A stretch of 64,000 nucleotides of DNA from an uncultured Bacteroidota bacterium. GTDB taxonomy: Bacteria > Bacteroidota > Bacteroidia > Bacteroidales > VadinHA17. The position numbers and the translations under genes are program-made. This document shows positions 13,369 to 64,000 of this stretch, piece after piece. The DNA is taken from positions 322,400-386,399 of the forward strand of contig CAWJKD010000002.1 of NCBI GenBank assembly GCA_963843415.1, read 5' to 3'. The notes beneath the pieces are model-generated. The model was not told where the DNA came from, ran no database searches, and saw nothing but the letters and a program-made list of their open reading frames with translations. Each line of letters starts with the position of its first letter. Positions within the stretch are counted from its first letter, which is position 1.

Positions 13369-13370
13369 TT

Positions 13371-17577: not shown

Positions 17578-17643
17578 TTTTCATTTTCCGGCCGCTGTTT
17601 TAATCAGTTTTTGCTTATTGCCGGATTAAGGCTAATTTTGATC

Positions 17644-18621: not shown

Positions 18622-18678
18622 TAGAATAAAATACCAAATCCTTATTCTCGCTCTCCGGAGCAATGAAAAGAAGCGGAT

Positions 18679-19275
18679 TCAATCCCTGTAATAAATTTCC
18701 AGAACCGCAACTTTTTCTTTAAAATCAATTTTTCTGATCTTTATTCTCACAATTTCTCTCCCGGTCAGCTCTGATACATCTTTTAACAGCTTTTGCTTTT
18801 TCCCTGCTTTGAGCAAATCGAGATTCTCGTAAACAATGCAGTGTGTTGTGCTATTGTATTTAATTGAGAATTTTTCAAGAATAAGTGCTGAAAGACAGAT
18901 TACTGAATCGAAGATCACAACTGCAATCCCGGGGATTTTCCCTAGCTTTAATGAAGTTATCACTGAAATCCCGATAACTGCAAAGATATAGGACATATCC
19001 TTTAGGCTAAAATTCCTTGTTCTGAACCTGAGTATGGCAAATATAGCAAACAGGCCAAAACCCATACCCATTTGCACAAACGCTGAATCCATCGCTGCCG
19101 CAAGGAAAAAGACTACTATACCCATCAGGAAAAAAGTAAAAACGAACTTTTCTTTCTTGGAGTACCTGAAATAAACAAGACGGATAAGTATGAATAGAAA
19201 AAACATGGTTATTACAAACCGTATTAACAACTCCCAAAAGTTCGGGTTACTCAGATCAAAGTAATCTTTAAACAT
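18679..19275 (-). CDS. DUF4956 domain membrane protein
   Basis: 198 aa with four or five TM helices. AILRFRTRNFSLKDMSYIF resembles the conserved xRFRTxxKxxxD block of DUF4956, a family usually found with CotH and VTC genes. Confidence 0.65.
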   Translation of the reverse strand: MFKDYFDLSNPNFWELLIRFVITMFFLFILIRLVYFRYSKKEKFVFTFFLMGIVVFFLAAAMDSAFVQMGMGFGLFAIFAILRFRTRNFSLKDMSYIFAVIGISVITSLKLGKIPGIAVVIFDSVICLSALILEKFSIKYNSTTHCIVYENLDLLKAGKKQKLLKDVSELTGREIVRIKIRKIDFKEKVAVLEIYYRD

Positions 19276-19294
19276 TGTATTAATTATTATAGAG

Positions 19295-20362: not shown

Positions 20363-20671
20363 ATTATTAGGATTAATGCCTGTTGTCTGATTCTCTTTAC
20401 ATTATAAAGTAAAGTTAAGAAAATATTTAATTCAGGAATATTACACTCCAAATAAAATATAACTGAAGTGGATTTTGATGACCATTTATAGGAGGAGGAG
20501 AAACCTTTTCAGGATGACAACCGGCCACCGGTTTCCTGCTTCCGGAAAGCCAAGGGACTGTGTGATGATAAGACCGTGCGATTACTTAATTGAATTATTC
20601 ACGACTGCAAGACAACTTTTATTTGACTTGTGTTCAACACTTTTGTAACTTTAACAAAATGATATAGTAAT

Positions 20672-23113
20672 ATGTCCAGTTTAATAGCAGGTTACGAATA
20701 TGATATCTTTATCAGCTACCGCCAGAAAGACAATAAATATGACGGATGGGTTACTGAGTTTGTGGATAATCTACAAAGGGAACTGGAAGCAACATTTAAA
20801 GAGGATATCAGTGTTTATTTTGATATCAATCCTCATGACGGGCTATTAGAGACTCATGATGTTGATGCCTCGCTGAAGGAGAAAATGAAGTGTCTGATCT
20901 TTATTCCGATTATTTCACGTACTTATTGCGATCCTAAATCTTTTGCGTGGGAACATGAATTTAAAGCCTTTATTGAACAGGCTTCAAAGGATCAATTCGG
21001 ACTTAAGGTTAAGTTGCCAAATGGGAATGTTGCAGGCAGAGTTTTACCGGTCCGCATACATCAGCTTGATAATGATGACATTAAATTGTGTGAGTCCCTT
21101 CTGGGAGGTGTGCTCAGGGGAGTTGAATTCATTTACAAATCTGCCGGTGTAAACCGGCCTTTAAGATTAAAAGAAGATAATCCGCACGATAATCTTAACA
21201 GAACAATTTACCGCGATCAGATAAATAAAGTAGCAAATTCAATCAGTGAGATTATCTCCGGCCTGAAAATAATTCAACCTTCTCCTACAGGGTTAAAGAC
21301 TGAAGCAATTACTGCTTCTGATGCCGGAACTTCAGAAGAATCTGATGCCATGCACAATCCGATTGGAAAAGTGTCTGATAAACGACATTTAGCAAAGTTT
21401 TATGAGCCAAAAAGAAGAAGATTGATCTATTCATTAACATCTTCCGCAGTTGTTATCCTGTCGCTCGTAACACTGCTCCTTTTTTCCAGTGGGAGTACTT
21501 TCCCGTTCTCTAAACGGGATTGGGTATTAATAACTGATTTTGAGAACCTTACAAAAGACAGCGTTTTTAATAAATCTCTTTATACTGCATTCTCCCTTAG
21601 TACAAGTCAATCAAGATATGTTAACGTTTTTCCAAGATCAAGGATGATTGAAGCCCTTGAAATGATGGATCTTAAGGATCAGACATCAGTCAACGAGATA
21701 ACAGGAAGGGAGATGGCAGAGCGTAAAGGGATTAACATTTATATCGTACCCAGCATCAGTGAAGTCGGAAAAAGATATGTAATTACTGCAAAGATTATTG
21801 ATGTGAAATCAGATGATCTTCTTAGTTCAGAAATATTATATGCAGAAACGAAGGATGCAATTCTGCCGGTCTTGGATAAGTTGTGCAGAAAACTGAGAAG
21901 AACGCTGGGGGAATCAAGATATAATATTGCAACTCAGGATAAACCATTAAAGACAGTTACAACCTCATCTCTGGAAGCTTTAAAGTTATATTCCCTGGGT
22001 ATTGATCATCATCTCAAGCTTGATTTCGTTGGAGCCAGGGGTTATTATGAAAACGCATTGAAGATCGATTCAGGATTTACTTCTGCAAAGGCTTCACTCG
22101 GATCTATTCTGTTGGAGAGATTCAACGTTCAGGATAAAGGACGGGAGTTATTGGATGAAGCAGTTAAATCAGCTGATAACCTTACTGACAGAGAAAAATA
22201 TGGGATAATTGCATTCCATGCTGTAAATGTTGAAAAAGATATTAAAAAGGGAATTGAAAATACAAGGGTGCTGTCAAGATTGTATCCTGACGATCCGGTT
22301 CCGCATAATAACCTTGGATATTATTATAAGTTGACCGGACAGTTTGAAGACGCTGTCAGAGAGTATAAGATAGCTATACGCTTAGATCCTGCCCAGGCTC
22401 TGAGCTATGGTGGCATCTTATGGATTTATTTTGAGGATCTGGGAAGGGTCGACTCACTGTTAATATGGTCCGGTAAGATGATCGCGGATAATCCGCAGAA
22501 CGCCTGGGGGTATATGTATCAGGGTTCTGCATGGTTCATGATGGACAGCCTTGATAAGGCTGAAGCCTCTCTTGTGAAATCCAGGGAGATTAATCCCCGG
22601 CTGACCCTGAACCTTTTTATCCTCAGCCATACTTATCGCCGCTCAGGGCGTTATAATGATGCAGTTAGTATTCTTAAAAACATTCTTGAAATAGAGCCGA
22701 CAGAATTCGCAGCTTATTATGTGCAGGGTGTAGTATATCAGTCAATGGGAAAGCCTGAAGAAGCCAGGGAATATTTTACCACTTTCAGAGAGAAAATTTC
22801 GGAATTCTGGATAAAATGGTGGCCCGATGATGTTGGTACATATGCCTCAATTGCTGCAGTGTCGGCAAGGCTTGGCGATATGGCATCTTCTGAAGAGATG
22901 CTTAAGAAAGCTCTTGAAATAGATTCCACAGCGCATGAACGCTTTGCTGAAGTCCTTTGTTTACAGGGGAAAGTGTCTGAAGCTCTTGATGAACTGACAA
23001 AAGACCTGGATAATGGGTACCGAAACCTTTACCAGTTAAAGGCAGCTCCTGACCTTCAGATATTGGATTATGATGTCCGGTTCCGTAACCTGCTTGAAAA
23101 ATATTTTAAATAG
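20672..23113 (+). CDS. TIR domain - TM helix - periplasmic TolB-N-like module - TPR repeat protein
   Basis: 813 aa.
- N-terminal TIR hallmarks: YDIFISYRQKDN, FIPIISRTYCDPKSFAWEHEF.
- One TM helix: SAVVILSLVTLLLF.
- These are followed by TPR-like repeats: YYENALKIDSGF, YKIAIRLDPAQA, KNILEIEPTEF.
- It is a paralog of 56901-59222. Confidence 0.8.
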   Translation: MSSLIAGYEYDIFISYRQKDNKYDGWVTEFVDNLQRELEATFKEDISVYFDINPHDGLLETHDVDASLKEKMKCLIFIPIISRTYCDPKSFAWEHEFKAFIEQASKDQFGLKVKLPNGNVAGRVLPVRIHQLDNDDIKLCESLLGGVLRGVEFIYKSAGVNRPLRLKEDNPHDNLNRTIYRDQINKVANSISEIISGLKIIQPSPTGLKTEAITASDAGTSEESDAMHNPIGKVSDKRHLAKFYEPKRRRLIYSLTSSAVVILSLVTLLLFSSGSTFPFSKRDWVLITDFENLTKDSVFNKSLYTAFSLSTSQSRYVNVFPRSRMIEALEMMDLKDQTSVNEITGREMAERKGINIYIVPSISEVGKRYVITAKIIDVKSDDLLSSEILYAETKDAILPVLDKLCRKLRRTLGESRYNIATQDKPLKTVTTSSLEALKLYSLGIDHHLKLDFVGARGYYENALKIDSGFTSAKASLGSILLERFNVQDKGRELLDEAVKSADNLTDREKYGIIAFHAVNVEKDIKKGIENTRVLSRLYPDDPVPHNNLGYYYKLTGQFEDAVREYKIAIRLDPAQALSYGGILWIYFEDLGRVDSLLIWSGKMIADNPQNAWGYMYQGSAWFMMDSLDKAEASLVKSREINPRLTLNLFILSHTYRRSGRYNDAVSILKNILEIEPTEFAAYYVQGVVYQSMGKPEEAREYFTTFREKISEFWIKWWPDDVGTYASIAAVSARLGDMASSEEMLKKALEIDSTAHERFAEVLCLQGKVSEALDELTKDLDNGYRNLYQLKAAPDLQILDYDVRFRNLLEKYFK

Positions 23114-52094: not shown

Positions 52095-52272
52095 GACGGC
52101 GCAACGGCGCAAGGGCGCAAAGGCGTAATGGCGTGAAGGCTTAATGGCTAATGGATATAAGCTCAGTCTTTATTTCATGATCCTTTTCTGATTGCCATAC
52201 ATGTGGCTCTGGAAAATTTCCAGTTGCACCGCTGAGCCGCTGCGCCGTTGCACCGTTGCACCGTCGCACCGT
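52095..52272. repeat. Two inverted arrays of degenerate 8-bp tandem repeats flanking an AT-rich spacer
   Basis: Left arm, 52095-52154: GCGCAACG GCGCAAGG GCGCAAAG GCGTAATG GCGTGAAG GCTTAATG GCTAATGG. Right arm, 52221-52272, read on the other strand: ACGGTGCG ACGGTGCA ACGGTGCA ACGGCGCA GCGGCTCA GCGGTGCA. Confidence 0.8.
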
Positions 52273-52646
52273 TATATCCCCAGAACCCTCTTAAGATCAG
52301 TGATCTGAGTATCCCAGAGATATATAGCATCATCTTTTTCCTCTGTTTCGGCGAAATCGATAATAATTAACGCGAGGCTGCCGCTGATCTCCTCAATTAT
52401 TATCCTGAATTCGAAATAGTTTGATTCTTTATCGGGGTTACCGAGCCATTCAAACCTCACAAATTTATTTTCCTTGAATGCTGATAATTTTGCTTTAGCT
52501 TCTGTTTTGCCCCATAAAAAAGTAAAGATATCACCATCAACATTAACGTCATCGGCAAACCATTCACAGAGTCCCTCGGGGGTACTGAGTCTTGAGAAGA
52601 GCACTTTGGGTGAGCAATTCAGCGTATATTCAAGTTCATACTTCAT
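52272..52646 (-). CDS. START-like / SRPBCC (AHSA1-like) domain protein
   Basis: 124 aa. MKYELEYTLNCSPKVLFSRLSTPEGLCEWFADDVNV resembles the Bacteroidota START-like family. The assignment is from memory of that pattern. Confidence 0.6.
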   Translation of the reverse strand: MKYELEYTLNCSPKVLFSRLSTPEGLCEWFADDVNVDGDIFTFLWGKTEAKAKLSAFKENKFVRFEWLGNPDKESNYFEFRIIIEEISGSLALIIIDFAETEEKDDAIYLWDTQITDLKRVLGI

Positions 52647-52821: not shown

Positions 52822-52895
52822 GGCGAGATAGCTCAGTTGGTTAGAGCGCATGATTCATAATCATGAGGTCCGGGGATCATTCCCCCGTCTCGCTA
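52822..52895 (+). tRNA. tRNA-Met (anticodon CAT, elongator-like) with an atypical T-loop
   Basis: GGCGAGATAGCTCAGTTGGTTAGAGCGCATGATTCATAATCATGAGGTCCGGGGATCATTCCCCCGTCTCGCTA folds as a cloverleaf.
- The D-arm and anticodon arm (CATGA-TTCATAA-TCATG) resemble elongator tRNA-Met.
- There is no GGG/CCC initiator anticodon stem.
- The T-loop reads ATCATTC instead of TTCRANN. Confidence 0.8.
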
Positions 52896-53066
52896 CACTG
52901 AAAATCAGTCACTTACAATGTTTGTAAAAAGTCATGACTTTTTTATTTTCATACAATTTTCATACAATTAGAGCTTATAATAGCCCATTTGGTACATAAC
53001 TCATTGTGTGTTTGGAATGACAAACTTGGTGCGTTTAGGTTATAGATTTCCCACTAAAGTCAAAAT

Positions 53067-53508
53067 TCAAAGGGTAATATTATACTTATTAAACCACTCA
53101 TAAAGACATACATCAAAGCTACCATTGATCTCGGTTATGACAGATATGCCAAGAGGTGTAAGTTTATAGCGGTTGTATCCTTTGATGATCTCAGCCAGTT
53201 GGATCATTCCTTTACTCTGAAGCGAGTTTAAGTAATACTTGATCTTACCAAGGTTATAATAACCGATATACTTCAGACAGCCATCCTGATGATATGCATG
53301 TGCTTTCATGCTTACAGTAAAGATAAATACCATTCAGGAAGATTATTTCATTAATTGATAGCTTGTATTTGCGTCTGAGTGGCTTAAGTCCTCGGAACAG
53401 GTTGTGTAAGATATAATGTACGTTAGTAGCAGGAATATTATATAGCTGAAGGTTATTTGAAGGTTGACCTGTGGTTGCGGAGTCCGTATCTTCTTGTTTG
53501 TTCGTCAT
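53067..53508 (-). pseudogene. Probable frameshifted winged-helix (MarR-like) DNA-binding protein gene
   Basis: ORFs 53254-53508 and 53067-53333 overlap by 80 nt in different frames. Joined, they read ...RRKYKLSINEIIFLNGIYLY.../...YHQDGCLKYIGYYNLGKIKYYLNSLQSKGMIQLAEIIKGYNRYKLTPLGISVI. That looks like one wHTH protein (recognition helix plus wing, RYKLTPLG). Confidence 0.4.
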
Positions 53509-53748
53509 AAATGCAAAGGTACTTCAATCTATTAACTTGTCTGAAATACCCTTTTTTCTGCTCTAGGCTGAAGATGTTTTTTAGAGAACAGGAACTGATT
53601 GATTATATTTTTTCTTTTGAGTGGTAAAAAAGAATTCTTATTTGAGGGATAGGGATATCGACAAATTGCACGTCCATTAAATTATCACCTCCCCAAATGA
53701 TAGGTCAAGTAACTGATGTTTTAATGTTTGGATTCTGATTTCATTATT

Positions 53749-53784
53749 CACTGGTTAAAGTTACTAAGCTAAAATTAACCAGTG
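53749..53784 (-). terminator. Hairpin downstream of the 53793 stop codon
   Basis: CACTGGTTAA...TTAACCAGTG has perfect 10-bp arms and a 16-nt loop. It lies 9 nt beyond the stop on the minus strand. Confidence 0.5.
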
Positions 53785-53792
53785 GTCTTAAT

Positions 53793-55040
53793 TCAGCGCG
53801 TTAATCCAGAGTAAAAAAAGTATGCCGTGACATTCTTGTTCCCATTCATCGTAATCGTCACCTGATTGGACGTCCCGGTCACATCGCCATCCCATCCGAC
53901 GAATGAATAGTTGTTTGCAGGATACGCCCTAAGCGTCACGTTCGTTCCAGCATTGTAGTAACTCTGGTCGGGTGACTTACCGACTACACCTCCATTTGTG
54001 GGTAAGACCGCAACAGTGAGGGTATAATGATTTATGCCTGCTGGTATAAACGGTTCATTGTTGCCATACTTTGTCCCTCCGCAATTAACTGCTTTTACTC
54101 TGTAATAATATTCGACATTTAATGAAAATTCTGTGATTGCTACCTCTGCATTTACTGCCAAGAGCTCTCCTGTCCCGGTTAGCGGGCTCTGGACAGCTGT
54201 TACTGTCTTATCCAATCCTAAGACATTTGTCCCGTATTCAAAAGTAACTGTAGTTGGGGAAAAACTTGCATTTACAGTTCCGTTAAATGTTACAGTTGTT
54301 CCACTATAGGTCTCAGAATTTGTTACTGCGGAAGGTTCGTAGCATGGATTGTGGAAAGGTATATTATTCCCAAAATTTATCCCAACACTATTTATGGCAT
54401 ATGCTCTCACATGGTAATCCTTGCCGGGCAGTAATCCTGAAATATAACTAGTGTAACTATCGTTTCCGGTTCCGTCAGATGTTTTATTGGTTAAATCCGG
54501 ATTTTCAATGGTTCCCCAGCAAACACCTTTTGCAGTAATTGCACTGCCCCCGTCATCAGTGATGTCTCCGCCTGAAGTTGCAGAATTATAAGCAAGATTA
54601 GAAATTGGTTTTGTCGAGAGCGTTGCTTTTGTGATAGCTTTTGTGGTAAATGAAATTTCATTACCGTAAGCTGTTCCATGATCATTAGTCGCGTAGGCTC
54701 TGACATAATATAAAGTATTTTCGGTCAATTGTGTCAGGCTGCCAGTAAAGGGGCCTATACCGGAACTATCAACATCAACACTGTATCTGTTGTCAGCTAT
54801 AGTCGGAGACGGATTTGTACTCCAGCAGACCCCGAGTTCTGAACAATCACAGAATCCTCCTCAATCATCAATTACTACTCCGCCACATAATGCACTGGTT
54901 CTTCCAATTTCAGTTGCCTGACTGGTCGTTACCATCGGAAGTGTATTACAGCAGGAACTGGCAAAAAACAATATTACCAGTTCCACCATAAAAAACACTC
55001 CTGAAAACTGATAAATGAACCTTTTTTTGAATGATTTCAT
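53793..55040 (-). pseudogene. Surface lipoprotein with repeated YYVRAYATN-type domains and a C-terminal InlB B-repeat (List-Bact) domain, interrupted by an in-frame TGA
   Basis: The ATG at 55040 gives MKSFKKRFIYQFSGVFFMVELVILFFASSCC (lipobox). The same frame continues ...LCGGVVIDD-TGA-GGFCDCSELGVCWSTNPSPT... into ORF 53793-54728. The TGA lies at 54861-54863. The C-terminus YTLTVAVLPTNGGVV...YSFVGWDGDVTG is InlB-B-repeat-like. Confidence 0.7.
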
Positions 55041-55258
55041 TGGTTAAGTATTTAGTATGAACATTGCCTAATGCTGTTTAGCTTAATTATTGAGCTATGA
55101 CGATCATTTCATTATGAAAAAAAATCTCCTAAGTGAATACACATTCACGATGACACCATAAATGGGTTTGTCATCGCTATTGTTTTCCTCAGCTGTCTGA
55201 AAAACACCCCACTTTTAGTTTATTTAAAATAAGTAAAGTTACCCCCCAAAAAGGCAAA

Positions 55259-55415
55259 AGTCAAATTTATTTTAGAATCATACCTTCTTTCATCCTGTAT
55301 AGGTACCGTGTAAGGGTATATTGTCGGGGTGATACCTTACTATCACCCGAGTCTTTTATGTCGACATAGGGGGGACACTGATAGGACACCTCAGGTAAAA
55401 AACCGGCAGGATGTT
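55259..55415 (-). repeat. 157-bp intergenic module, copy A (paralog of 56572-56728)
   Basis: It aligns to copy B without gaps. Conserved blocks are AGTCAAATTTATTTT, CTGTATA, GTGATAC-TTA-CTATCAC, TTATG-CGAC and TCAGGTAAAAAA-CGGCAGGATGTT. It contains a TAAATTTG -7 box on the minus strand at 55262-55269. Confidence 0.75.
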
Positions 55416-55634
55416 TCGTACGAAAGAAAAAATCCTCGGAGATGATTTCCGAGGGCTTGGTATAAGTCATTGTTAATTTAAAGCGGTATTTCCTATTTGT
55501 AAAACCTCATGCTAAAAGGGAATATGTCTCGCTGCTTGCTACATTAAATAGTATAAAAGGGAATGCTGCTAAGATTGAAATTATGGATTATTAGTATGCG
55601 ATGCCATTTAAAGCTGTTTGTCTGCTACTAATAC

Positions 55635-56492
55635 TTATTTTTTAGTAATAGTAACTAATACTCCATCCGGAGTGGTTTCTTGCATATAAATAGCCCCCAT
55701 ATAGTCAGCTGCCTTTTCACATATTACCCTGTAAAATGTCAGGTAATCATCGTAAGTTACGTTATATTGTGGACCCGCTTTTAATCCTGCAAGCATTTTA
55801 CTGACACTAAAAATAAGATGATTATTATCCTGTTCCTGGATTTTAAGTTTTCCTATCGGTACCACGGAACGCCAGAAACTTAATATACTATTCACAAAAC
55901 CGTTGTAACCGCTGGCTTGATTCCAGCTTTTCTTATATTGATCTCCTGTGAATCCGGCTAAATCTTCCACACTTTTTCCAAGCGATTTCGCATAATTTAT
56001 TGAGTTCAAAATATAAGGATCTGGATTAGAATAAGTAGAAGCTTGTATAGAATTCCGGTAAACTATTTTCCATGTGCCGTCATGTTTCTCCAGAAAATAA
56101 GTTATAAATTGTTCTCCCGTTAATTCACCATTAAGAGTTTCATTATCGTAAAGAATCCAGGCAGTTTCTCCATAAATTTTAATTCTGATGGGGGTTTTTA
56201 CTTGTTTCCGTACTTCCTTTTTATTGAGAACCTGTGGCTTCCAAATGGGAAGTATAGAATCCCAGCCGGATAGAATAGAAAATCCTGATTTAGACTCTAA
56301 TGTATATACAGCAGTCGAATCTTGAAGATAGAATGTACACCAGCGTTCAAAATCACTGGCGTAATATGCTGCCGTTTCTTCCTTAATGACAGCCATAATG
56401 GCTTCTTTTTCTTTTCCAAAGTCAATCTTTTCCTTACAGGAATAGTTGACGATATTAACAAATGCAATTAAAACTGTAATTACTTTTTTCAT
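55635..56492 (-). CDS. Lipoprotein with an N-terminal NTF2/SnoaL-like (DUF4440-like) domain and a C-terminal domain of unknown function
   Basis: The ATG at 56492 gives MKKVITVLIAFVNIVNYSC (lipobox). AVIKEETAAYYASDFERWCTFY...YGETAWILYD...HDGTWKIVY fits an NTF2-like fold pattern. The ORF-track start at 56549 is a TTG. Confidence 0.6.
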   Translation of the reverse strand: MKKVITVLIAFVNIVNYSCKEKIDFGKEKEAIMAVIKEETAAYYASDFERWCTFYLQDSTAVYTLESKSGFSILSGWDSILPIWKPQVLNKKEVRKQVKTPIRIKIYGETAWILYDNETLNGELTGEQFITYFLEKHDGTWKIVYRNSIQASTYSNPDPYILNSINYAKSLGKSVEDLAGFTGDQYKKSWNQASGYNGFVNSILSFWRSVVPIGKLKIQEQDNNHLIFSVSKMLAGLKAGPQYNVTYDDYLTFYRVICEKAADYMGAIYMQETTPDGVLVTITKK

Positions 56493-56571
56493 AATGCCGA
56501 AGATTAAAAGATTAAGAAAATTCTTTATCCAAGGAGTGATATTGATCAAATTTACGCTATTGAAAAGCCAT

Positions 56572-56728
56572 AGTCAAATTTATTTTGAAATCTTCCCGCG
56601 TATACTGTATATAGGGTTTATATAAGGCCATATACCCTCAAGTGATACTTAACTATCACTTGAACCTATTATGCCGACCCCTCACCCCTATACCAGGGAC
56701 ACATCAGGTAAAAAATCGGCAGGATGTT
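56572..56728 (-). repeat. 157-bp intergenic module, copy B (paralog of 55259-55415)
   Basis: It has the same length and block structure as copy A. It contains a TAAATTTG -7 box on the minus strand at 56575-56582, 83 nt upstream of the ATG at 56492. Confidence 0.75.
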
Positions 56729-56900
56729 ACTTGTGGAAAAAGAATGTTCTTTGCTTCCTATTTTAGATAAGAATAAAAGAATGCTTTTCTTAGGGTAGTG
56801 GGATAGATTATTCTGATCTCCTTCTGAAAGTGGTATCCCTGTAATAATAGTAATGACCTCTCTTGTGGATGTTTGTTTGTAACATGAAATTCAAAATACT

Positions 56901-59222
56901 TTAATTCTTTTGCTCGGCAACAGCCTTTTTTGTTGCTTCGAGATGAATATATGCTTCACGATCATATACAGCTTTCTCCATTCTTAAATCCCAACTTTTT
57001 TGAAGTATCTTTAACGCTTCCTGGTATTTCCCTTGTTTATATAATCCCCAGCCTTTGGTGTGTAAATAATTAAAATCATCAGGACTTAATTCCAATGCTT
57101 TTTGGGCAAGTTCCAAGCCTTCTTCAATGTTCCGATCTTTATCAATCAGGAAATAAGCAAGATTATTAATCCTCTCAGGGGCTTTAGGTTCTAATGAGAT
57201 TGGCTGACGATAATATTCTTCTGATATATCCAGAACACCTGCCTCAGAATAAATTGAAGCCAAGCTTGTTGTTATATCTGCATCAGAGACTGAATTGGCT
57301 CTACAAATAGATTTGTATTTCTCAATATATTCAGATGCAGTTTTCGTTTCTCCTTCAGTCAATGATAGCACTGCTTGCCTGTAGATCAGATCGGGATCAT
57401 CAGGAAAATCAAGTTCAGCTCTTCTATAAAGTTCTTTCTCTTTATTAAATTGACTGGTCTGATGATATGCATTTCCAAGGTATGTATAATCAAATACCCA
57501 CTGCGGTTTTACTCCCCAGTTTTTATATATTTGAAGTGCTTTTTCTAATTCAAGAATGACCTTCTCATGTTGGAATAGTTTTGAGTAGCTATTTGCAAGT
57601 CTGTAATAAAAATGAGGGGATTGGTCATCAATCTCCAAAAGCTGTTGACAATATTTGATCTCTTCAACTGGAGTTTCAAAATAACTGGCATATGCCATAT
57701 CAATATTATGTCTGAGCTTTAAAGAAGATTGATTCTTTTTCCTATAGGCCTTCAAGCACCATTTTTTAGCATCGTCATACATTGATTGATTTCCATATGA
57801 ATATGAAATCATTATAGTAGCCCCGACAAAATTGGAATCAATATTCAATGCCTGTTTAAACAAATTCCTTGCTGCAGAATAATCTTTTTTATCATAGAAA
57901 ATATGAAACCCTAACGTATAATACCTGGACGCTTCAGGAGAGAACGTGGTACCAATATGCTGAACATCAGGAGGTACTTCCTTATTCAATTTTGAGATTA
58001 TTAGATAATCCCTCACCATTTTTGATAGTGAATCAATGATTAGATAGATCTTCTCGGTAACTCCTTCTATTTGGAAAGCCTTAATAATCTCTTCTGTTCT
58101 CGTACTAATTAATTGTGCATTAAGACGTATTATTGATCCTGCTTTGCTTATACTCCCATAGGCAAAGACATTTACATCCAGTTTCTTTGAGATTGAACTT
58201 GCGACTGACGGTGTTATTGAGGCATAGTTTGTAATTATTTTGCTCTGTATAAGATTTTCTATTGATTCTATTTGTCTTATTTTTAGTTCTTCAGAGTTCG
58301 ATAGGAAGTTGATCAAATTATCCTGAATTATATCTTGCCATATGTTCCAGATTGTGTCATTAGTCATATTTTGAAACGGCATTACTGCAATGGAGATTCT
58401 TCCGTCAGAAGATTTCAGATTTTCAAGCTTGTCTATTTTGAATAATCTAGGATAAACAAATATTGCAACAGCAACTAAAATTGTTATAATGATACTACTT
58501 AAAAGTAGCTTCCGCTTAGGTAATCTGGAAGGTTTCTCCTGTACTTCCATTTTATCCACCTTCCCCAGTTCCTCCAATGGTTCTATGTAAAATGTATTTT
58601 CTTTTACCGGTGCAGTCTGAACATTCTTAAGGCTGATAATTATTTCATCAATCGCATTAGCTACTTTGTTTATTTGATTTAGGTAAAATGTTTTATTCAG
58701 GTTGTTACTAGGATGATCTTCATTAACCCTGAGAGGACGGTTTACACCAGGTTCTTTATATACAAATTCAATCGGCCTGAGTATTCCTCCCAATTCCCTT
58801 TCAATATGTGATTTATCATCAGCAGCTATTTCGTGAATCAGGATTGGAAGTACCCTGTTTGCAATATTACCATTTGGAAGTCTGACCTTTAGTCCGAACT
58901 GATCTTTGGAAGCCAATTCTACAAATGCTTTGAATTCATGTTCCCATGCAAATGACTTCGGGTCACAGTAGGTTCTGGATATGATAGGGATAAATACGGA
59001 GCATTTCAGCTTCTCCTTCAGAGATTCATCTACATCATGTGTCTCTAGAAGTCCATCATGAGGATTGATGTCAAAATAAACACTGATTTCTTCCTTGAAT
59101 GTTGATTCCAGTTCCCCTTTCAGGTTATTCACAAATTCAGTCACCCAGCCGTCATGCTTATTATCCTTCTGGCGGTAGGAGATGAAGATGTCGTATTCGT
59201 AACCTTCAATGATGCTTGACAT
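56901..59222 (-). CDS. TIR domain - TM helix - periplasmic TolB-N-like module - TPR repeat protein (paralog of 20672-23113)
   Basis: 773 aa.
- N-terminus: MSSIIEGYEYDIFISYRQKDNKHDGWVTEF...FIPIISRTYCDPKSFAWEHEFKAF.
- TM helix: LLLSSIIITILVAVAIFVY.
- Periplasmic module: ISIAVMPFQNMTND.
- Several TPR-like repeats follow: FKQALNIDSNF, LEKALQIYKNW, AQKALELSPDD. Confidence 0.8.
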   Translation of the reverse strand: MSSIIEGYEYDIFISYRQKDNKHDGWVTEFVNNLKGELESTFKEEISVYFDINPHDGLLETHDVDESLKEKLKCSVFIPIISRTYCDPKSFAWEHEFKAFVELASKDQFGLKVRLPNGNIANRVLPILIHEIAADDKSHIERELGGILRPIEFVYKEPGVNRPLRVNEDHPSNNLNKTFYLNQINKVANAIDEIIISLKNVQTAPVKENTFYIEPLEELGKVDKMEVQEKPSRLPKRKLLLSSIIITILVAVAIFVYPRLFKIDKLENLKSSDGRISIAVMPFQNMTNDTIWNIWQDIIQDNLINFLSNSEELKIRQIESIENLIQSKIITNYASITPSVASSISKKLDVNVFAYGSISKAGSIIRLNAQLISTRTEEIIKAFQIEGVTEKIYLIIDSLSKMVRDYLIISKLNKEVPPDVQHIGTTFSPEASRYYTLGFHIFYDKKDYSAARNLFKQALNIDSNFVGATIMISYSYGNQSMYDDAKKWCLKAYRKKNQSSLKLRHNIDMAYASYFETPVEEIKYCQQLLEIDDQSPHFYYRLANSYSKLFQHEKVILELEKALQIYKNWGVKPQWVFDYTYLGNAYHQTSQFNKEKELYRRAELDFPDDPDLIYRQAVLSLTEGETKTASEYIEKYKSICRANSVSDADITTSLASIYSEAGVLDISEEYYRQPISLEPKAPERINNLAYFLIDKDRNIEEGLELAQKALELSPDDFNYLHTKGWGLYKQGKYQEALKILQKSWDLRMEKAVYDREAYIHLEATKKAVAEQKN

Positions 59223-59245
59223 CTGAGAATTATATGCTTAAATAC

Positions 59246-59253
59246 CAAAGTTA
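59246..59253 (-). promoter_or_regulatory. -7 promoter box TAACTTTG for the TIR gene
   Basis: The reverse complement of CAAAGTTA matches TAnnTTTG. It lies 24 nt upstream of the ATG at 59222. The related TGTAACTTTA sits at the same relative position before the paralog at 20672. Confidence 0.5.
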
Positions 59254-59318
59254 CATCTTGTTTAAGCCAAAGTCAACTTTATTTGCTGATTCAATATAAA
59301 TTTCCGAAATTTGATCTG

Positions 59319-59394
59319 AGCGGTATTTCCATATGAGATTCTCATATTGGGTATCATTCATTGACGATGTATATACTCCCCTGGAAATACCGCT
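59319..59394. promoter_or_regulatory. Perfect 13-bp inverted repeat enclosing 50 bp, with a nested 17-bp palindrome
   Basis: AGCGGTATTTCCA lies at 59319-59331 and TGGAAATACCGCT at 59382-59394. The nested palindrome ATATGAGA-T-TCTCATAT lies at 59331-59347. The structure sits about 100-170 bp upstream of the TIR gene start. Confidence 0.6.
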
Positions 59395-60225
59395 TTCTTT
59401 AAATAAAATCAACCATGAAATTATTGATCACTTTAAACCTTCGCTAATTGAATTATTTTTCCGATATTTGATAATGGTGGCATCTCCAATTCGTAAAACC
59501 TTACTTTAAACTAAGTAGGTTTAAATGCAGCGAGACATATTTATTCCACAAGGAGATGCGCATGTTTACTCGTGAAAATCATTTATCTTTGTAAGGCATC
59601 AAGAATTCCTTAAATGGATACCAACCGAGTCAAACACCACGGTGGTAAAACGATGTGGACAGTCCGTCAAAAATGTTTATAAATCACCATGGCTTTCCGA
59701 GATTGATCTTGATGTGAAAATTGATTTTTATTATTCACTTTTAACTTTTTGCATTATGAAAGACAACAAGAGAAAAGCAGCCGAACCAGTACATTATCGA
59801 CAATCGGAGAACGGCAGAGCAGTTTTGGGAAGATTTGATGAACACACCCTATAACGAAGATAAGGTAGGGCAGGCTTTTGTAAAAGTATCATGGAAACGA
59901 TTACCGGAATCTGAAAAACCCCAACCAAATAAAACTGATGAAAAAGAAAATAAATAAGGATGAATTAGCTACAGAGCAAAAATCAACTTCTTTGGAGAGG
60001 GAGAATATAGAGAAACTCTTTCCAAATTTAAAGATAGTGGACGCTACGGACGAGATGATTGGAAAGACCTTTCTGTTTACGTGGATAAGGCCCACTAAAA
60101 AATCGAATCAGGACGACGTTTAGAAATTCCACTTTTAGCCAAATATGGTTACTTTTAGCAGAAAAGATACGTTTTGTTTACAATTACTGAGTGACATTTT
60201 AGAGGCCAATAAAGAGAAAATTATT

Positions 60226-61167
60226 ATGAAGAAATCCGAAAAGATTAGAATTTCCCTTCTGGGTTTGATGTCAATTTTGGTATCATGTAGTACAAATCCA
60301 GTTGACAAATTTCAAGGTGTTTATATCGCTGATAAGGATTCCTTGAGAGTACTTTTACAAAAGGATATGGATGATGATAATGCTTTTGCAGTTAATTTGT
60401 TGAATATAGCGATTGAAAATGCTGTTATTGAGTTTGAAATTAAAGGAGACTCGATAAATGGATTAATGTTTCTGGCAGGTGAAAGCACTACTATTAACTC
60501 AAAAATAGTTACAAGAAATGATGGCATGATTATTAAGGTTGGTGAGGTTGAAGCGAATTTAACACCCACGCCAACTGGTTTATTATTCGGCAGATCAAAT
60601 TCAGATTTAAGTATTCACCTGATTAAATCAGAACGAACTAAATTATCTGAGGAAACGTGGCAGGCAATAAAAGAGGAGAAAGAGTATGAGAAAAGTCTTG
60701 GGAAATGGCAACTCAGAAATTTTGTCGATGACTTTGGTGATTCTACAAGTAGTAAATATATCAAAACACAGGTAGAAGGTACATTCTCTAATTCTGCTAC
60801 CAGTAATTCATATTTATTTGCTGAGGTTTTATTTACTAAAAGTGCAATAGGTATTTTTTTCCATGAATATAGTATTTCGTCACCCAATGCTAGATTTATT
60901 GAAGATGACTACATTCTAGCGACGGTTAACCTAAAAAACTCCAAAGGAGAGACGCTATTCTTGGGTTCTTCTCTTGAATGGGGGGATGATGGCGGAATTA
61001 GCTTTAGAAGAAAGAGTAATGATCCTGATGATGATTATACAAAATCTAAGAATTTTATTCAAAACAACACGGGCAAAATAAAAGTAGTTGTTAAAGATCG
61101 ATTTGGATCATCATATCTATTCTCAATAGATTCCACAGGATTTACAGAAGGGCTTGCGCTGTTGTGA
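60226..61167 (+). CDS. Hypothetical lipoprotein
   Basis: The ATG at 60226 gives MKKSEKIRISLLGLMSILVSCSTNP (lipobox). I recognise no family. The ORF-track start at 60145 adds an unlikely 27-aa extension. Confidence 0.6.
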   Translation: MKKSEKIRISLLGLMSILVSCSTNPVDKFQGVYIADKDSLRVLLQKDMDDDNAFAVNLLNIAIENAVIEFEIKGDSINGLMFLAGESTTINSKIVTRNDGMIIKVGEVEANLTPTPTGLLFGRSNSDLSIHLIKSERTKLSEETWQAIKEEKEYEKSLGKWQLRNFVDDFGDSTSSKYIKTQVEGTFSNSATSNSYLFAEVLFTKSAIGIFFHEYSISSPNARFIEDDYILATVNLKNSKGETLFLGSSLEWGDDGGISFRRKSNDPDDDYTKSKNFIQNNTGKIKVVVKDRFGSSYLFSIDSTGFTEGLALL

Positions 61168-61308
61168 AAAACAACTCAATTTTTAGACTTCATTATCATA
61201 TAAAGACATATAAACACTCGAAGAACGTAAAGCAGTGCAGCGAGACAAATTTATTCGACTAGGAGATGCCGCTTTCTTAGATAATCTTTTTTTTCACAAT
61301 TTTACACT

Positions 61309-61869
61309 ATGGGATCATTCATTATTGTCGTAATCATTTTGGTGGTTGTAATTACTTTTTTTCTTAAGAAAGCCAGAAAGTTTGATGAAGAGGTAGAAGA
61401 GAGAAAATCTACATCAAAGAAGAAATCAATTAAGGAAAAGAAAACCGCACCACATCACACAGATTTAACTTTTGAAGAATACAATTCTAAATGGGATAGT
61501 TATTATGGCATTAGAACAGACGAACCTTTTACCACAACATTATCTGGAACAAAATATAATGATTGTCAATCTGTAATTAAAAAATTAGTTAAGGAAGGAG
61601 ATGAACTAATGTTGCTACCTGACCTTGAGAACGAACATGATAAAACAGCAACACGTGTATGCACTAAAGATGGTTGGATGGTCGGCTGGATACCAAATCA
61701 AGAGTGGAGCGATAGGATATTTACTGACTTACTGAAAGGGAGGAGATGGGATGCTTATGTAAAGGAGATCAGACAACCTTCAAAAGAATGGAATTTTTAT
61801 AATGTAGTTGTTGAATTATGGCGATATGAACTAGGTACCGTTATTGATTTGACGTTTTTAAATCAATGA
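61309..61869 (+). CDS. Membrane-anchored HIRAN-domain protein
   Basis: 186 aa.
- N-terminal TM helix: FIIVVIILVVVITFFL.
- A Lys-rich linker follows.
- The HIRAN-like block is TTLSGTKYNDCQSVIKKLVKEGDELMLLPDLENEHDKTATRVCTKDGWMVGWIPNQEWSDRIFTDLLKG. Confidence 0.6.
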   Translation: MGSFIIVVIILVVVITFFLKKARKFDEEVEERKSTSKKKSIKEKKTAPHHTDLTFEEYNSKWDSYYGIRTDEPFTTTLSGTKYNDCQSVIKKLVKEGDELMLLPDLENEHDKTATRVCTKDGWMVGWIPNQEWSDRIFTDLLKGRRWDAYVKEIRQPSKEWNFYNVVVELWRYELGTVIDLTFLNQ

Positions 61870-62043
61870 TAGAAGGTTTAATTTTACAAGCTAAGTTAGG
61901 AAAAGGAATAAAGAAACCAAAGTAAAAGCAAGCATCATCTTACTTTCTCAAACCGTCTAAACATCAACAAGTTGATTCTGGTATTATTGGAATAAAATGT
62001 GCGATAAAAAGAAATTTGCTTACTCCAAAAGAAAACGATATTA

Positions 62044-63449
62044 CTAATTTGAAGGGATCAAGTTAAAATAGAAATCTCCAGTAAGTGAAGTCGACTCCCA
62101 AGGTATTTGTTGTTTTTTCGTTCTCTGGGAAACAACATTCCTTACATTCTGGAACATCTGAATTATTGTGAGATTGGGGATTTGGATGTTTTCTAATACA
62201 GCAGTTGTATAAGGACTGTTACTTCCACTACCATCTGATGCCGTATTCCCCGGTGCGGTTGAATAGGCAATAAGTGTACCTGTGGGGGCATTCATAAATG
62301 CAAGTCCCCTCCCGAAGGAGAGCGAGTCCAGCTTCGTTCAAATGGATTATTTCGGCAAGCATCTAATACAATAACATTGACTTTCGTACCAGATGTCTCC
62401 ATAAGGGCCAGAACACGATCTGCTCGCACACAATCATATTCAACTTGCTCTTCTGTTGTAAGCTGTGCATCAACTGGTATTAAATAATTATAACCCTTGG
62501 CCTGAAGACCATGGCCAGCATAATAGAATAATCCTACATCATTGCCCTTAAGTTTTGATCCAAATTCGTCAATCGCTCTCTTCATCTGACTTCCATTCAG
62601 ATTCTTATAAGAATAAACTTCAAATCCGAGCTTCTTTAAAATATCGGTCATTGATCTCGCATCATTTTCAGGATTTGCCAGAATACTCCCAATATAATTG
62701 CCATTGCCGATTACTAAAGCAATCCTTTTTCCCGGTTTATTTGTCTCAAAATTTGTGATCTTTGATGAACTGGCTTTCAAACCAGCGCTTTCCGAAGAAG
62801 CAACTTCCTTTTGATCTAATAAAGGAAGCTCATCCTCCTTATCATTCACACTTTCCTTTATAACCGTATTTGCTACATAATCTCCAATACTAATTTTTAA
62901 AGGTTCATATTCGTTTACCACTTTCTGGCCTTTAAATGTGAGGCTATCTTGATAGTGATAACGATATGTCTTGCCATTAGATGGGTTAGTAATTATGAGA
63001 CTTATTAATGCAAAGCCTTTTGTTGTTAATGCATAGTCTGGTTTGGAAAATATAAGGGATAAAATATTACTTTCAAAAGATGAGGCTTCATTATCTGCGA
63101 TCGGAACTTCTATATAAATTGCAGGAAGAGAACGAATTATTAATTTGTAAACCTCATTATCAGCATCATATTCTGCTTGTTTGATTCCAAATACAATTTC
63201 CTGGCTGGCGAGATTATTGATACTACTCTTTACTAAATCATCGATTTTTTGTTGCCTATTTAAAGGAGTAATCCTTTTTTCATAATCAATTGTGTTTTCA
63301 TATCTACCCCGTACCTGCCACTTACTTATTTCATTACTTGCAAAGTCTCCAATATGCTCAACAATTTTATTCAAATCTAAATTAGACTCATATAGATAGT
63401 ACTCTATTGAGTCCTTTCTCAGTTGTAATTCCTTTGTTATTTCAGCCAA
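62044..63449 (-). pseudogene. Caspase-like (peptidase C14) protein with a ~230-aa N-terminal domain of unknown function, split by a frameshift
   Basis: ORF 62292-63449 carries the His and Cys motifs FYYAGHGLQAKGYNYLIPVD and VIVLDACRNNPF. ORF 62044-62295 in another frame continues with the p10-like part (GRGLAF)MNAPTGTLIAYSTAPGNTASDG. The frames switch near the G-run TCGGGAGGGGAC at about 62300-62312. Confidence 0.7.
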
Positions 63450-63529
63450 GGCATCTTTAATAGGTTTATTTAATTTCTCAGTAAACTTGATTGACGGTGA
63501 ACCTATCTTATTATAAAAAAAGGATACAG

Positions 63530-64000
63530 CTAAGGTCTCTTTTTTATTGTATTGTAGCTATATAACAAAGTATCCTCTGTCTGAACCTTAAGCTGAACAT
63601 TAGCAACGATATTATCAAAATACCATGGAGATCCGATTAATGACAATAGAATAAATGGGACCTTTAGTATCATACCTCCGTATGAAAGTATATGATCATA
63701 AGATTCAATGATTATTTCAGCATAGATATCCTTTGCTGTCGGGTCGTTTGTAAAAAGATCCGTAAAATCATCTGATATAAAATTCTTGAACTCTTGTTCG
63801 CTTAATCCCAATTTTCTTGGCACTTTCCATTTAGGTGTGTATTTGAGTAAGTTGACTGAAATATTTAATTTCGCATCTATCTTTTTGTGAGACTCTATAT
63901 TATTTTTCTTTTCATAATATGGGATATAGGAGTTTTTCACAACACACGAAGTAGCTATTATCGTTATTCCAATGACGAATACCTTTGTGAATGGTCTCAT
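63530..64000 (-). CDS. Hypothetical lipoprotein
   Basis: The ATG lies exactly at 64000-63998, giving MRPFTKVFVIGITIIATSC (lipobox). 156 aa, and I recognise no family. Confidence 0.55.
   Translation of the reverse strand: MRPFTKVFVIGITIIATSCVVKNSYIPYYEKKNNIESHKKIDAKLNISVNLLKYTPKWKVPRKLGLSEQEFKNFISDDFTDLFTNDPTAKDIYAEIIIESYDHILSYGGMILKVPFILLSLIGSPWYFDNIVANVQLKVQTEDTLLYSYNTIKKRP

What the first reader, a model, noticed from the sequence alone, without database searches (positions are those of the whole stretch)
52896..64000. Accessory island next to tRNA-Met that combines TIR, caspase-like and HIRAN proteins with decayed genes and private repeats
The character of the DNA changes from the tRNA-Met 3' end to the window edge.
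- It looks more AT-rich by eye; this was not computed.
- Intergenic regions are long (up to 1 kb).
- Three of about nine genes are disrupted: a wHTH frameshift, an in-frame TGA and a caspase frameshift.
- Several repeat families occur only here.
- The intact or near-intact genes carry domains enriched in conflict systems. These are a transmembrane TIR-TPR protein (56901-59222), a C14 caspase-like peptidase with an unknown N-terminal domain (62044-63449) and a membrane-anchored HIRAN protein (61309-61869).
- Three lipoproteins of unknown function sit among them.
- No integrase is visible, and the far boundary lies outside the window.

This may be a degraded defence or surface-variation island.
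Basis: partly seen in the sequence, partly recalled or inferred. Interest (0 to 1): 0.6.

Follow-up and report, generated by a model that had tools for sequence, protein, structure and literature searches.

The report
Decaying low-GC gene islet beside tRNA-Met
The stretch after this tRNA-Met gene is a real, species-specific, AT-rich and partly decayed patch of accessory genes in an uncultured Bacteroidales genome, but it is a loose grab-bag at a variable site rather than a working defence system or a mobile element.

Summary
The observation mostly holds.
- Composition: window 54600-65600 has GC 0.354 against 0.404 for the genome, which puts it in the lowest 1.2% of 11-kb windows.
- Coding density: it lies in the lowest 2.2% of windows.
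- Broken genes: three genes are broken in the assembly, namely a wHTH frameshift, an in-frame TGA in an Ig-like lipoprotein, and a caspase frameshift.
- Mobility: I found no integrase and no tRNA-derived repeat up to 60 kb downstream.

In 18 genomes of the same genus the START2-lptFG-tRNA-Met side is conserved. The DNA beyond the tRNA differs in each of four relatives examined: thi genes, type I RM plus Mrr, IS21, and a SusCD locus. Most island genes have no homologue in those genomes.

The "TIR" head fails Pfam's cut-off, but a confident model matches TIR structures. It belongs to a family with about 15 copies in this genome and thousands of members in Bacteroidales MAGs.

PADLOC finds no complete defence system, and homologues of the island genes do not co-occur elsewhere. 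The repeats called "private" also occur outside the island and look mostly like promoter or leader sequence.

Verdict: an ordinary flexible-genome islet, partly a mosaic of intragenomic duplicates. A SAM-I/IV riboswitch was overlooked.

The parts
52822..52896 (+). tRNA-Met (CAT). It is the conserved anchor of the variable site.
   Evidence: ARAGORN and Rfam tRNA at 65.5 bits. The same tRNA sits next to START2-lptFG in at least 8 genus relatives.
53067..53508 (-). Small wHTH-like gene broken by a 1-nt frameshift near 53285-53292. It is probably an old neighbour of the tRNA rather than island cargo.
   Evidence: - Two overlapping ORFs of 88 and 84 aa.
- The intact 146-aa paralogue at C5:318826-319266 is about 80% identical and also lies just after tRNA genes.
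- Only weak HTH hits: EarA and SarA/Rot, both below cut-off.
- A 39%-identical homologue lies beside tRNA-Met in relative G005.
53793..55040 (-). Ig-like repeat lipoprotein (Flg_new_2 / fn3-like) with an in-frame TGA at 54861-54863 (codon 60).
   Evidence: Translation, DNA and Pfam Flg_new_2 at 53.9 bits. It belongs to a large repeat family present in all relatives.
55235..55431 (-). Upstream promoter/leader module. It is similar to 56548-56744 and in part to 59247-59296, and it contains the Bacteroidota -7 box TAAATTTG on the minus strand.
   Evidence: the repeat finder families D1 and D2. Similar stretches lie upstream of unrelated small membrane or lipoprotein genes on C1, C3, C4 and C5.
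55635..56549 (-). SnoaL_3-domain lipoprotein with an unknown C-terminal half. The likely start is the ATG at 56492.
   Evidence: Pfam SnoaL_3 at 26.2 bits. Relatives hold only fragmentary matches of 30-40% identity.
56901..59222 (-). Intact 773-aa single-pass membrane protein. It has a divergent TIR-fold head (residues 1 to about 200), a TM helix (about 238-258), a TolB-like domain and a TPR tail.
   Evidence: - TPR Pfam hits.
- TIR_2 reaches only 17.6 bits against a cut-off of 28.
- The AlphaFold model of the head has pLDDT 87.8.
- Its best roughly 45 PDB matches are TIR domains, at probability 1.00.
- There are about 15 head-bearing loci in this genome and 12-34 in several relatives.
- More than 7000 clusters exist in public data, named TolB-like or TPR protein.
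59591..59684 (+).
   Evidence: Rfam RF01725 at 57.7 bits against a gathering score of 41.1. It is one of only two in the genome.
59757..60123 (+). Two short overlapping ORFs downstream of the riboswitch. The first is frame-broken relative to its C5 copy.
   Evidence: Window 59583-60144 is 86.5% identical to C5:90325-90878. Reading the alignment, the C5 copy gives an intact 66-aa ORF and the 61-aa ORF is kept in both copies. No family hits.
60145..61167 (+). Lipoprotein of unknown function. The likely start is at 60226 (MKKSEK...LVSC).
   Evidence: ORF and lipobox. No Pfam, NCBIfam, PADLOC or PHROG hit. Only its C-terminal half matches roughly 200-aa ORFs in 3 relatives, at 33-35% identity.
61309..61869 (+). 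Membrane-anchored HIRAN-domain protein (N-terminal TM helix, Lys/Glu-rich linker, HIRAN).
   Evidence: - Pfam HIRAN at 28.5 bits against 24.7.
- The PADLOC PDC-M03B match covers the HIRAN part only.
- Only 5 relatives, at 50-60% identity, in 5.8 billion proteins.
- No homologue in 30 relatives.
- The two other contexts examined share no partner gene with this locus.
62044..63449 (-). Caspase-like (C14) gene with an orphan N-terminal domain of about 235 aa. A 1-nt frameshift after the His/Cys-bearing part splits it.
   Evidence: - Pfam Peptidase_C14 on both pieces.
- The junction DNA reads TCGGGAGGGGAC.
- An intact WD40-caspase paralogue lies at C6.
- The N-domain has no relative in the large protein collection.
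- It has only 25-27% matches in two genomes of other families.
63530..64000 (-). 156-aa lipoprotein of unknown function, 80 nt upstream of the caspase gene on the same strand.
   Evidence: ORF with an ATSC lipobox. No family hits. No homologue in 30 relatives.

Best explanation
This is a flexible-genome islet of about 12 kb, running from window 52897 (or 53509) to about 65250. It sits at a variable site next to a conserved tRNA-Met in an uncultured Bacteroidales genome.

Contents:
- It holds lineage-specific, AT-rich genes that mostly encode envelope-associated proteins, each with its own promoter.
- These are four lipoproteins, one member of a large family of TIR-headed single-pass membrane receptors, a membrane-anchored HIRAN protein, and a caspase fused to an orphan domain.

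Origin and state:
- Part of it is a mosaic of sequences duplicated from other AT-rich tracts of the same genome.
- Several genes are decaying, as expected under relaxed selection.
- The genes do not form one functional system.
- There is no sign that the region is, or still is, a self-mobile element.

Shown: atypical composition, low coding density, broken reading frames in the assembly, the break of synteny at the tRNA, absence of most genes from relatives, intragenomic duplicates, and the TIR fold of the head.

Inferred: relaxed selection, the lack of functional coupling, and the origin of the tract. That origin could be recombination among flexible tracts, or an old integration whose integrase and att sites are gone.
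For: - Composition and density: GC 0.354 is in the lowest 1.2% of 11-kb windows, and tetranucleotide distance is in the top 5%. ORF coverage is 66.5% against a median of 92.3%.
- The left flank is conserved. START2-lptFG-tRNA-Met is present in at least 8 genus relatives.
- The DNA beyond the tRNA differs in all four relatives read:
  - G001 has thiD-thiC-thiE-thi4.
  - G004 has Mrr plus type I RM.
  - G006 has IS21 plus hypothetical genes.
  - G014 has pirin, YceI, AraC and SusCD.
- Island genes in 30 relatives: HIRAN, the 156-aa lipoprotein and orf189 have no homologue. Others give only fragments. No hit lies at the relatives' tRNA-Met locus.
- Right side: the p102-FeADH-fucosidase-HAL block is conserved and syntenic in the genus (HAL 86-90% identical). 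It lies 35-100 kb from lptFG in G003, G004 and G008.
- Mosaic origin:
  - The wHTH gene is about 80% identical to its copy at C5:318.8 kb.
  - Window 59583-60144 is 86.5% identical to C5:90.3 kb.
  - The TIR-like receptor is 55-58% identical to copies on C5 and C8.
  - Window 53582-53667 is 82% identical to DNA beside the C8 copy.
- Decay: three broken genes, a frame-broken small ORF, and orf189 without a signal peptide or ATG.
- No coherent system: PADLOC finds nothing complete, and HIRAN homologues sit in unrelated contexts.
Against: - The closest available genomes are only genus-level (core proteins 60-72% identical). Loss of synteny is therefore weaker evidence than an empty site in a close strain would be.
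- Low GC is also typical of the native TIR-headed family (mean GC 0.388; the closest paralogues are 0.35-0.38). AT-richness therefore need not mean foreign origin.
- The frameshifts could not be checked against reads, and the caspase one lies at a G-run.
- TIR, caspase and HIRAN domains are all enriched in conflict systems. A relative also carries a caspase-TPR gene between two TIR-like-headed genes within 13 kb. Some functional link therefore cannot be excluded.
Confidence: 0.65

Rival explanations
1. Degraded defence island. On this reading the TIR-headed receptor, the caspase and the HIRAN protein are remnants of one or more abortive-infection or conflict systems that clustered at a defence hot spot and are now decaying.
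For: - The head has a TIR fold with an invariant Glu (E96) in the helix where TIR enzymes carry their catalytic Glu.
- The caspase keeps its His/Cys dyad.
- HIRAN matches the PADLOC candidate PDC-M03B at E 7e-9.
- Relative G004 carries a type I RM system plus Mrr at the same tRNA-Met site, so the site can host defence genes.
- Kaur et al. 2020 (PMC7159879) describe caspase- and TIR-bearing conflict systems in Bacteroidetes.
Against: - There is no complete PADLOC system, and no partner gene for PDC-M03B.
- The EACC1-type caspase model scores 48.9 bits against a cut-off of 140.
- The upstream 156-aa protein matches no model.
- The TIR-headed gene is one of about 15 paralogues in this genome, and several relatives carry 12-34. 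That pattern looks like a receptor repertoire.
- The three genes lie on different strands with separate promoters.
- Homologues do not co-occur elsewhere.
Confidence: 0.15
2. Remnant of a tRNA-targeting integrative element (genomic island or prophage) whose integrase and att sites have eroded.
For: - The position is right after a tRNA gene, the composition is atypical and the content is lineage-specific.
- Other genus members carry an IS21 or RM cargo at the same site.
- A RAYT-like remnant between two REP-like hairpins lies at the right edge of the AT-rich tract, at window 64977-65222.
Against: - There is no integrase, recombinase, transfer or phage gene from the tRNA to 25 kb downstream.
- There is no direct repeat of the tRNA 3' end within 60 kb.
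- The first gene after the tRNA (wHTH) is also next to tRNA-Met in relative G005, so it is probably ancestral.
- REP-like hairpins occur at 20 places in the genome.
Confidence: 0.15
3. Ordinary chromosomal region whose 'pseudogenes' are assembly errors. On this reading the genes are intact, lowly expressed, fast-evolving envelope genes.
For: - The genome has 8 contigs. Related records are long-read MAGs, where indel errors occur.
- The caspase frameshift lies in GGGAGGGG.
- No reads could be found to check.
Against: - The wHTH frameshift is not in a homopolymer.
- The lipoprotein defect is a substitution-type in-frame TGA.
- Flanking core genes (ribBA, lptFG, HAL) are intact.
- Composition, coding density and gene distribution are atypical regardless of the frameshifts.
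Confidence: 0.1

Closest known systems
tRNA-adjacent genomic islets / regions of genome plasticity (flexible-genome hot spots)
   Same: - It sits next to a tRNA gene.
- Its composition is atypical.
- Its content is lineage-specific and differs between relatives at the same anchor.
- It contains pseudogenes.
   Different: It has no integrase, no att direct repeat and no transfer genes. Part of the content is duplicated from elsewhere in the same genome rather than clearly foreign.
Defence islands (clusters of anti-phage systems)
   Same: It carries proteins with TIR-fold, caspase and HIRAN domains. A relative has a type I RM system plus Mrr at the same site.
   Different: PADLOC models recognise no complete known or candidate system. 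The genes are not co-conserved, and one of the three is broken.
Bacterial TIR-domain proteins (TIR_2 / PF13676; AbTir, BtpA, ThsB)
   Same: The predicted fold of the head matches TIR structures. The head starts with the usual strand motif (YDIFISY) and has an invariant Glu in the third helix.
   Different: - It scores below the Pfam cut-off.
- It is about 60 residues longer than the TIR domain chains it matched.
- It is fused through one TM helix to a TolB-like plus TPR tail, predicted to be periplasmic.
- It occurs in many copies per genome.
- No enzymatic activity has been tested.
EACC1-caspase two-gene conflict system (Kaur et al. 2020, PMC7159879)
   Same: A caspase gene is preceded on the same strand by a small gene for a membrane-associated protein.
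   Different: The caspase scores far below the family cut-off. Here the caspase domain is C-terminal to an orphan domain, whereas in the EACC1 system the variable region follows the caspase. The upstream protein matches no model.
CadC/ToxR-type one-component transmembrane regulators
   Same: The layout is a cytoplasmic output domain, one TM helix and a periplasmic sensor. In relative G007 the same kind of TPR tail carries an AraC-type HTH head or a caspase head.
   Different: Here the output domain is a TIR fold, not a DNA-binding domain.

Membership tests
Classical genomic island | Insertion next to a tRNA gene | tested here: met
   tRNA-Met at 52822-52896. Synteny with relatives ends there or one gene later.
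Classical genomic island | Composition different from the rest of the genome | tested here: met
   GC 0.354 is in the lowest 1.2% of 11-kb windows. Tetranucleotide distance is in the top 5%.
Classical genomic island | Integrase or other mobility gene | tested here: not met
   No such ORF or Pfam/PHROG hit from 52897 to window 78000. There is only a RAYT-like fragment of about 80 aa without a Pfam hit.
Classical genomic island | Flanking direct repeats derived from the tRNA 3' end | tested here: not met
   No match longer than 14 nt within 60 kb downstream.
Classical genomic island | Sporadic distribution among related genomes | tested here: met
   Most island proteins are absent from 30 relatives, and none lies at the homologous locus. 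Only genus-level relatives were available.
Defence island / known anti-phage system | A complete set of genes of a known or candidate system | tested here: not met
   PADLOC-DB gives a HIRAN-part match to PDC-M03B without a partner, plus a weak generic caspase match.
TIR domain | Match to the family profile above the curated cut-off | tested here: not met
   TIR_2 scores 17.6 bits against 28. Thirteen heads in the genome score 13-18 bits. FxsC TIR-like scores 17.7 bits against 130.
TIR domain | TIR (flavodoxin-like) fold | tested here: met
   The AlphaFold2 model has pLDDT 87.8 and pTM 0.86. The top Foldseek PDB matches are SNC1, AbTir, RPP1, BtpA, RUN1, SARM1 and MyD88 TIR domains, at probability 1.00 and TM-score up to 0.66 (normalised to target length).
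TIR domain | Catalytic Glu and NAD+ cleavage | tested here: inconclusive
   E96 is invariant in 70 sequences and lies in helix 91-105. I could not make a residue-level superposition, and activity is not testable here.
Peptidase C14 (caspase) | Profile match and His/Cys dyad | tested here: met
   97.2 and 56.5 bits against 21.4. The YAGHG and DACRN motifs are present.
Peptidase C14 (caspase) | Uninterrupted reading frame | tested here: not met
   A frameshift near 62300-62312 splits the domain. The paralogue on C6 is uninterrupted.
HIRAN domain | Profile match above the cut-off | tested here: met
   28.5 bits against 24.7, over residues 75-131.
EACC1-caspase system | Caspase of the EACC1-associated type and an EACC1 gene upstream | tested here: not met
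   NF047832 scores 48.9 bits against 140. The upstream 156-aa protein has no hit in Pfam, NCBIfam or PADLOC.
SAM-I/IV riboswitch | Covariance-model score above the gathering threshold | tested here: met
   57.7 bits against 41.1 at 59591-59684.
Phase- or surface-variation locus | Site-specific recombinase with an invertible, repeat-flanked promoter | tested here: not met
   There is no recombinase in the region. No repeat-flanked segment of promoter size was found: the only inverted-repeat arms over 30 nt are 0.7-4.4 kb apart and only 71-74% complementary.

The most novel reading that the evidence does not exclude
The intact TIR-headed receptor may be a working envelope-sensing immune or signalling unit, possibly together with the neighbouring membrane-anchored HIRAN protein and the caspase. 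On this reading it belongs to a very large, unannotated Bacteroidales repertoire of receptors. Each has a periplasmic TolB-like/TPR sensor, one TM helix and a cytoplasmic TIR head. That is the layout of Toll-like receptors. In this repertoire the head can be swapped for a caspase or a DNA-binding domain. AT-rich islets such as this one would then be where new receptor variants are generated and discarded.
Probability: 0.15. Interest if true: 0.65.

Novelty: new member of a known kind. Interest (0 to 1): 0.3.

Why it matters
As an island it matters little. Variable, decaying gene patches beside tRNA genes are common.

Its value is as context.
- In this lineage, TIR-fold, caspase and HIRAN proteins sit in AT-rich flexible tracts without forming recognisable defence systems. 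That is a caution against reading a domain combination as a system.
- It adds one more read-out of a large TIR-headed membrane-receptor family. Current domain libraries miss the head, and its function is unknown.

Tried and rejected
- Public reads to verify the frameshifts: none were listed.
- First structure prediction of the head, with 31 near-identical sequences: pLDDT 46.9, unusable. A 70-sequence alignment worked.
- Sequence search of the head against PDB: no hit.
- The exhaustive representative search returned only close heads (63% identity or more) among the 150 shown, so I could not build a deep profile.
- tRNA-derived att repeat: none.
- Conserved partner of the HIRAN gene: the ORFs upstream of the two homologues examined are unrelated to the 340-aa lipoprotein.
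- N-terminal domain of the caspase: no relatives in the large collection.
- Thiamine genes that follow the tRNA in G001: absent from this genome altogether, so they give no right-hand anchor.
- The riboswitch-linked 562-nt stretch in the genus: only the aptamer part matches, in two genomes.
- RAYT-like fragment: no Pfam hit.
- Loci taken from relatives' genomes were not available in the Python box, so I compared synteny through search coordinates and ORF lists.

Full report
**Where the window lies.**
- The window is C2:322400-386399 of a 3.70-Mb, 8-contig genome with GC 0.404.
- Related records that carry the same gene family are uncultured Bacteroidales and Rikenellaceae MAGs from fens, peat, lake sediment and Danish soils.
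- The nearest genomes available are genus-level. Their core proteins are 60-72% identical.

**Checking the observation: composition and coding density.**
- The tRNA-Met is at 52822-52896.
- GC falls to 0.33-0.365 in 2-kb windows from about 54600 to about 65600. It recovers to 0.44 by about 67600.
- The 11-kb tract has GC 0.354. That is lower than 98.8% of 11-kb windows of the genome. Its tetranucleotide usage is among the 5% most deviant.
- The fall starts about 1.7 kb after the tRNA, not at its end.
- ORFs of 100 aa or more cover 66.5% of 52897-64000, against a genome median of 92.3% (lowest 2.2% of windows).

**Checking the observation: broken genes.**
- The small wHTH-like gene is split into two overlapping frames. 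Its paralogue on C5 is one 146-aa frame. The shift is at ...ATATCATCAGG..., which is not a homopolymer.
- The Ig-like lipoprotein (53793-55040) has an in-frame TGA at codon 60.
- The caspase gene shifts frame in TCGGGAGGGGAC. A WD40-caspase paralogue on C6 reads straight through the same place.
- Two further defects are likely:
  - The first small ORF after the riboswitch is frame-broken relative to its C5 copy.
  - orf189, just beyond the window, has no ATG and no signal peptide. Its frame opens with a sequence that looks like the residues just after a signal-peptide cleavage site.
- I could not check any of these against reads.

**Mobility.**
- No integrase, recombinase, transposase or phage gene lies between the tRNA and window 78000.
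- No repeat of the tRNA 3' end lies within 60 kb.
- At the right edge of the AT-rich tract (window 64977-65222) there is a short remnant resembling the genome's single RAYT-type transposase. It lies between two REP-like hairpins, but such hairpins occur at 20 places in the genome.

**The repeats.**
- The modules 55235-55431, 56548-56744 and 59247-59296 lie just upstream of three consecutive minus-strand genes.
- On the coding strand they contain TAAATTTG, which fits the Bacteroidota -7 promoter box known from the literature.
- Similar stretches lie directly upstream of unrelated small membrane or lipoprotein genes on C1, C3, C4 and C5.
- The motif at 59523-59550 has a perfect 28-nt copy at C2:1020855.
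- The repeats are therefore not private to the island.

**Comparison with relatives: the left side and the site itself.**
- The left side (ribBA, lptFG, START2, tRNA-Met) is conserved in at least 8 genus members.
- Beyond the tRNA every relative I read is different:
  - G001 has thiamine genes.
  - G004 has Mrr plus a type I restriction system.
  - G006 has an IS21 element and hypothetical genes.
  - G014 has pirin, YceI, AraC and a SusCD locus.
- A wHTH homologue lies beside tRNA-Met in G005. The wHTH gene is therefore probably an old neighbour of the tRNA, and the islet proper starts after it.

**Comparison with relatives: the island genes.** I searched 30 relatives with a concatenated query of island proteins.
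- The HIRAN protein, the 156-aa lipoprotein and orf189 have no homologue.
- The 340-aa lipoprotein and the SnoaL lipoprotein give only partial matches of 30-40% identity.
- The caspase catalytic domain is found at 56-71% identity, fused to other domains.
- The caspase N-domain is nearly unique. It also has no relative in the large protein collection.
- None of these hits lies at the relatives' tRNA-Met locus.

**Comparison with relatives: the right side.** The p102-FeADH-fucosidase-HAL block (window about 73500-78000) is conserved and syntenic across the genus. It lies 35-100 kb from lptFG in three relatives. The whole interval between the two anchors is therefore variable in this genus.

**Mosaic origin.** Several pieces have copies in other AT-rich tracts of the same genome.
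- The wHTH gene is about 80% identical to its copy at C5:318.8 kb, which also lies after tRNAs.
- Window 59583-60144 is 86.5% identical to C5:90.3 kb.
- The TIR-headed gene is 55-58% identical at protein level to copies on C5 and C8.
- Window 53582-53667 is 82% identical to DNA beside the C8 copy.

**The three 'conflict' proteins: the TIR-like head.**
- The head of the 773-aa protein fails Pfam TIR_2 (17.6 against 28 bits). So do 12 other heads in the genome.
- A model built on 70 sequences is confident (pLDDT 87.8). Its best roughly 45 PDB matches are TIR domains.
- E96 is invariant and lies in the third helix.
- The family is very large. More than 7000 clusters exist, annotated as TolB-like or TPR proteins and never as TIR. 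More than 500 representative clusters share a head at least 63% identical among those shown.
- This genome has about 15 head-bearing loci, and several relatives have 12-34, often in tandem.
- One protein in the C6 array has a canonical TIR_2 head (81.5 bits) on a TM plus FGE-sulfatase/hydrolase-type tail.
- In G007 the same kind of TPR tail carries a caspase head or an AraC HTH head.
- This pattern fits a repertoire of single-pass receptors with exchangeable cytoplasmic output domains. Earlier notes of this scan reached the same reading on other genomes. I count those as leads only.

**The three 'conflict' proteins: HIRAN and caspase.**
- The HIRAN protein passes Pfam and is rare, with 5 relatives. 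Its homologues sit among unrelated genes, one beside a block of small ORFs that ends in a serine recombinase gene.
- The caspase keeps its catalytic dyad but is split.

**Is it a defence system?**
- PADLOC finds no complete system.
- The caspase is far below the cut-off of the EACC1-associated type (Kaur et al. 2020, PMC7159879).
- The three genes are on different strands.
- Their homologues do not travel together.
- I therefore read the combination as co-residence in the flexible compartment, not as a system. I give the defence-remnant reading about 15%.

**Overlooked feature.** A SAM-I/IV riboswitch lies at 59591-59684 (57.7 bits against 41.1).
- It is one of only two in the genome. The other heads the duplicated stretch on C5, upstream of a rhodanese-like lipoprotein (the domain is my reading of the sequence and was not scanned).
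- What it controls here is unknown. Candidates are the two short ORFs, the 340-aa lipoprotein and HIRAN.

**Verdict.** The 'defence' and 'surface-variation' labels are not supported. This is an ordinary flexible-genome islet at a variable tRNA-adjacent site.

Noticed in passing
window 59591-59684 (+), with the duplicate at C5:90334-90425: - A SAM-I/IV riboswitch lies inside the island. It and its duplicate are the only two in the genome.
- Both are followed by about 450 nt that are 86.5% identical and hold two short overlapping ORFs of 66 and 61 aa.
- The first ORF is frame-broken in the window copy.
- The regulated function is unknown. The C5 copy precedes a rhodanese-like lipoprotein.
   Followed up: partly
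L004:2977-3222 (window 64977-65222, just outside the window): - A remnant of a RAYT-type (REP-associated tyrosine transposase) gene lies between two REP-like hairpins (GGGCGTTRCATGYAACGCCC) at the right edge of the AT-rich tract.
- The hairpin occurs at 20 places in the genome.
- One full RAYT-like gene lies at C2:760254-760922.
   Followed up: partly
window about 20672-23100 (+), inside a second AT-rich tract at 13000-21000: Another TIR-headed receptor paralogue (816-aa frame, head 75% identical) lies in the same window, next to a second low-GC stretch (GC 0.35-0.37).
   Followed up: no
G000 C6:284337-286940: A protein with a canonical TIR_2 head (81.5 bits), one TM helix and an FGE-sulfatase/hydrolase-type tail sits within an array of the divergent TIR-headed genes on C6 (242-302 kb).
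   Followed up: partly
L108 (G007:C33:33001-53000): An AT-rich tract of a relative carries the following genes side by side:
- a TIR-like head fused to DUF6272-SiaC
- a response regulator-SpoIIE phosphatase
- an 1801-aa Ser/Thr kinase-STAND-GAF-histidine kinase
- a caspase-TPR protein
- an AraC HTH-TPR protein
The output heads appear to be swapped on similar tails.
   Followed up: partly
whole genome G000: There is no thiC, thiD or thi4 homologue anywhere in the assembly (97.5% complete). Relative G001 has these genes right after the homologous tRNA-Met. This suggests thiamine auxotrophy.
   Followed up: no
G000 C2:1083942-1085859: A paralogue (69-74% identical) of the 640-aa cupin-SMP30/gluconolactonase protein is also split into two frames. 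Broken paralogues are therefore not confined to the island.
   Followed up: no
L010 (G005:C15:127693-129010): In relative G005 a wHTH homologue, tRNA-Met and START2 keep the same mutual arrangement as in the window, but lie 14 kb from lptFG.
   Followed up: partly
window 52096-52273: Two facing arrays of 8-nt tandem repeats lie upstream of lptFG, between it and START2. Tandem Repeats Finder gives 4.8-7.2 copies.
   Followed up: no
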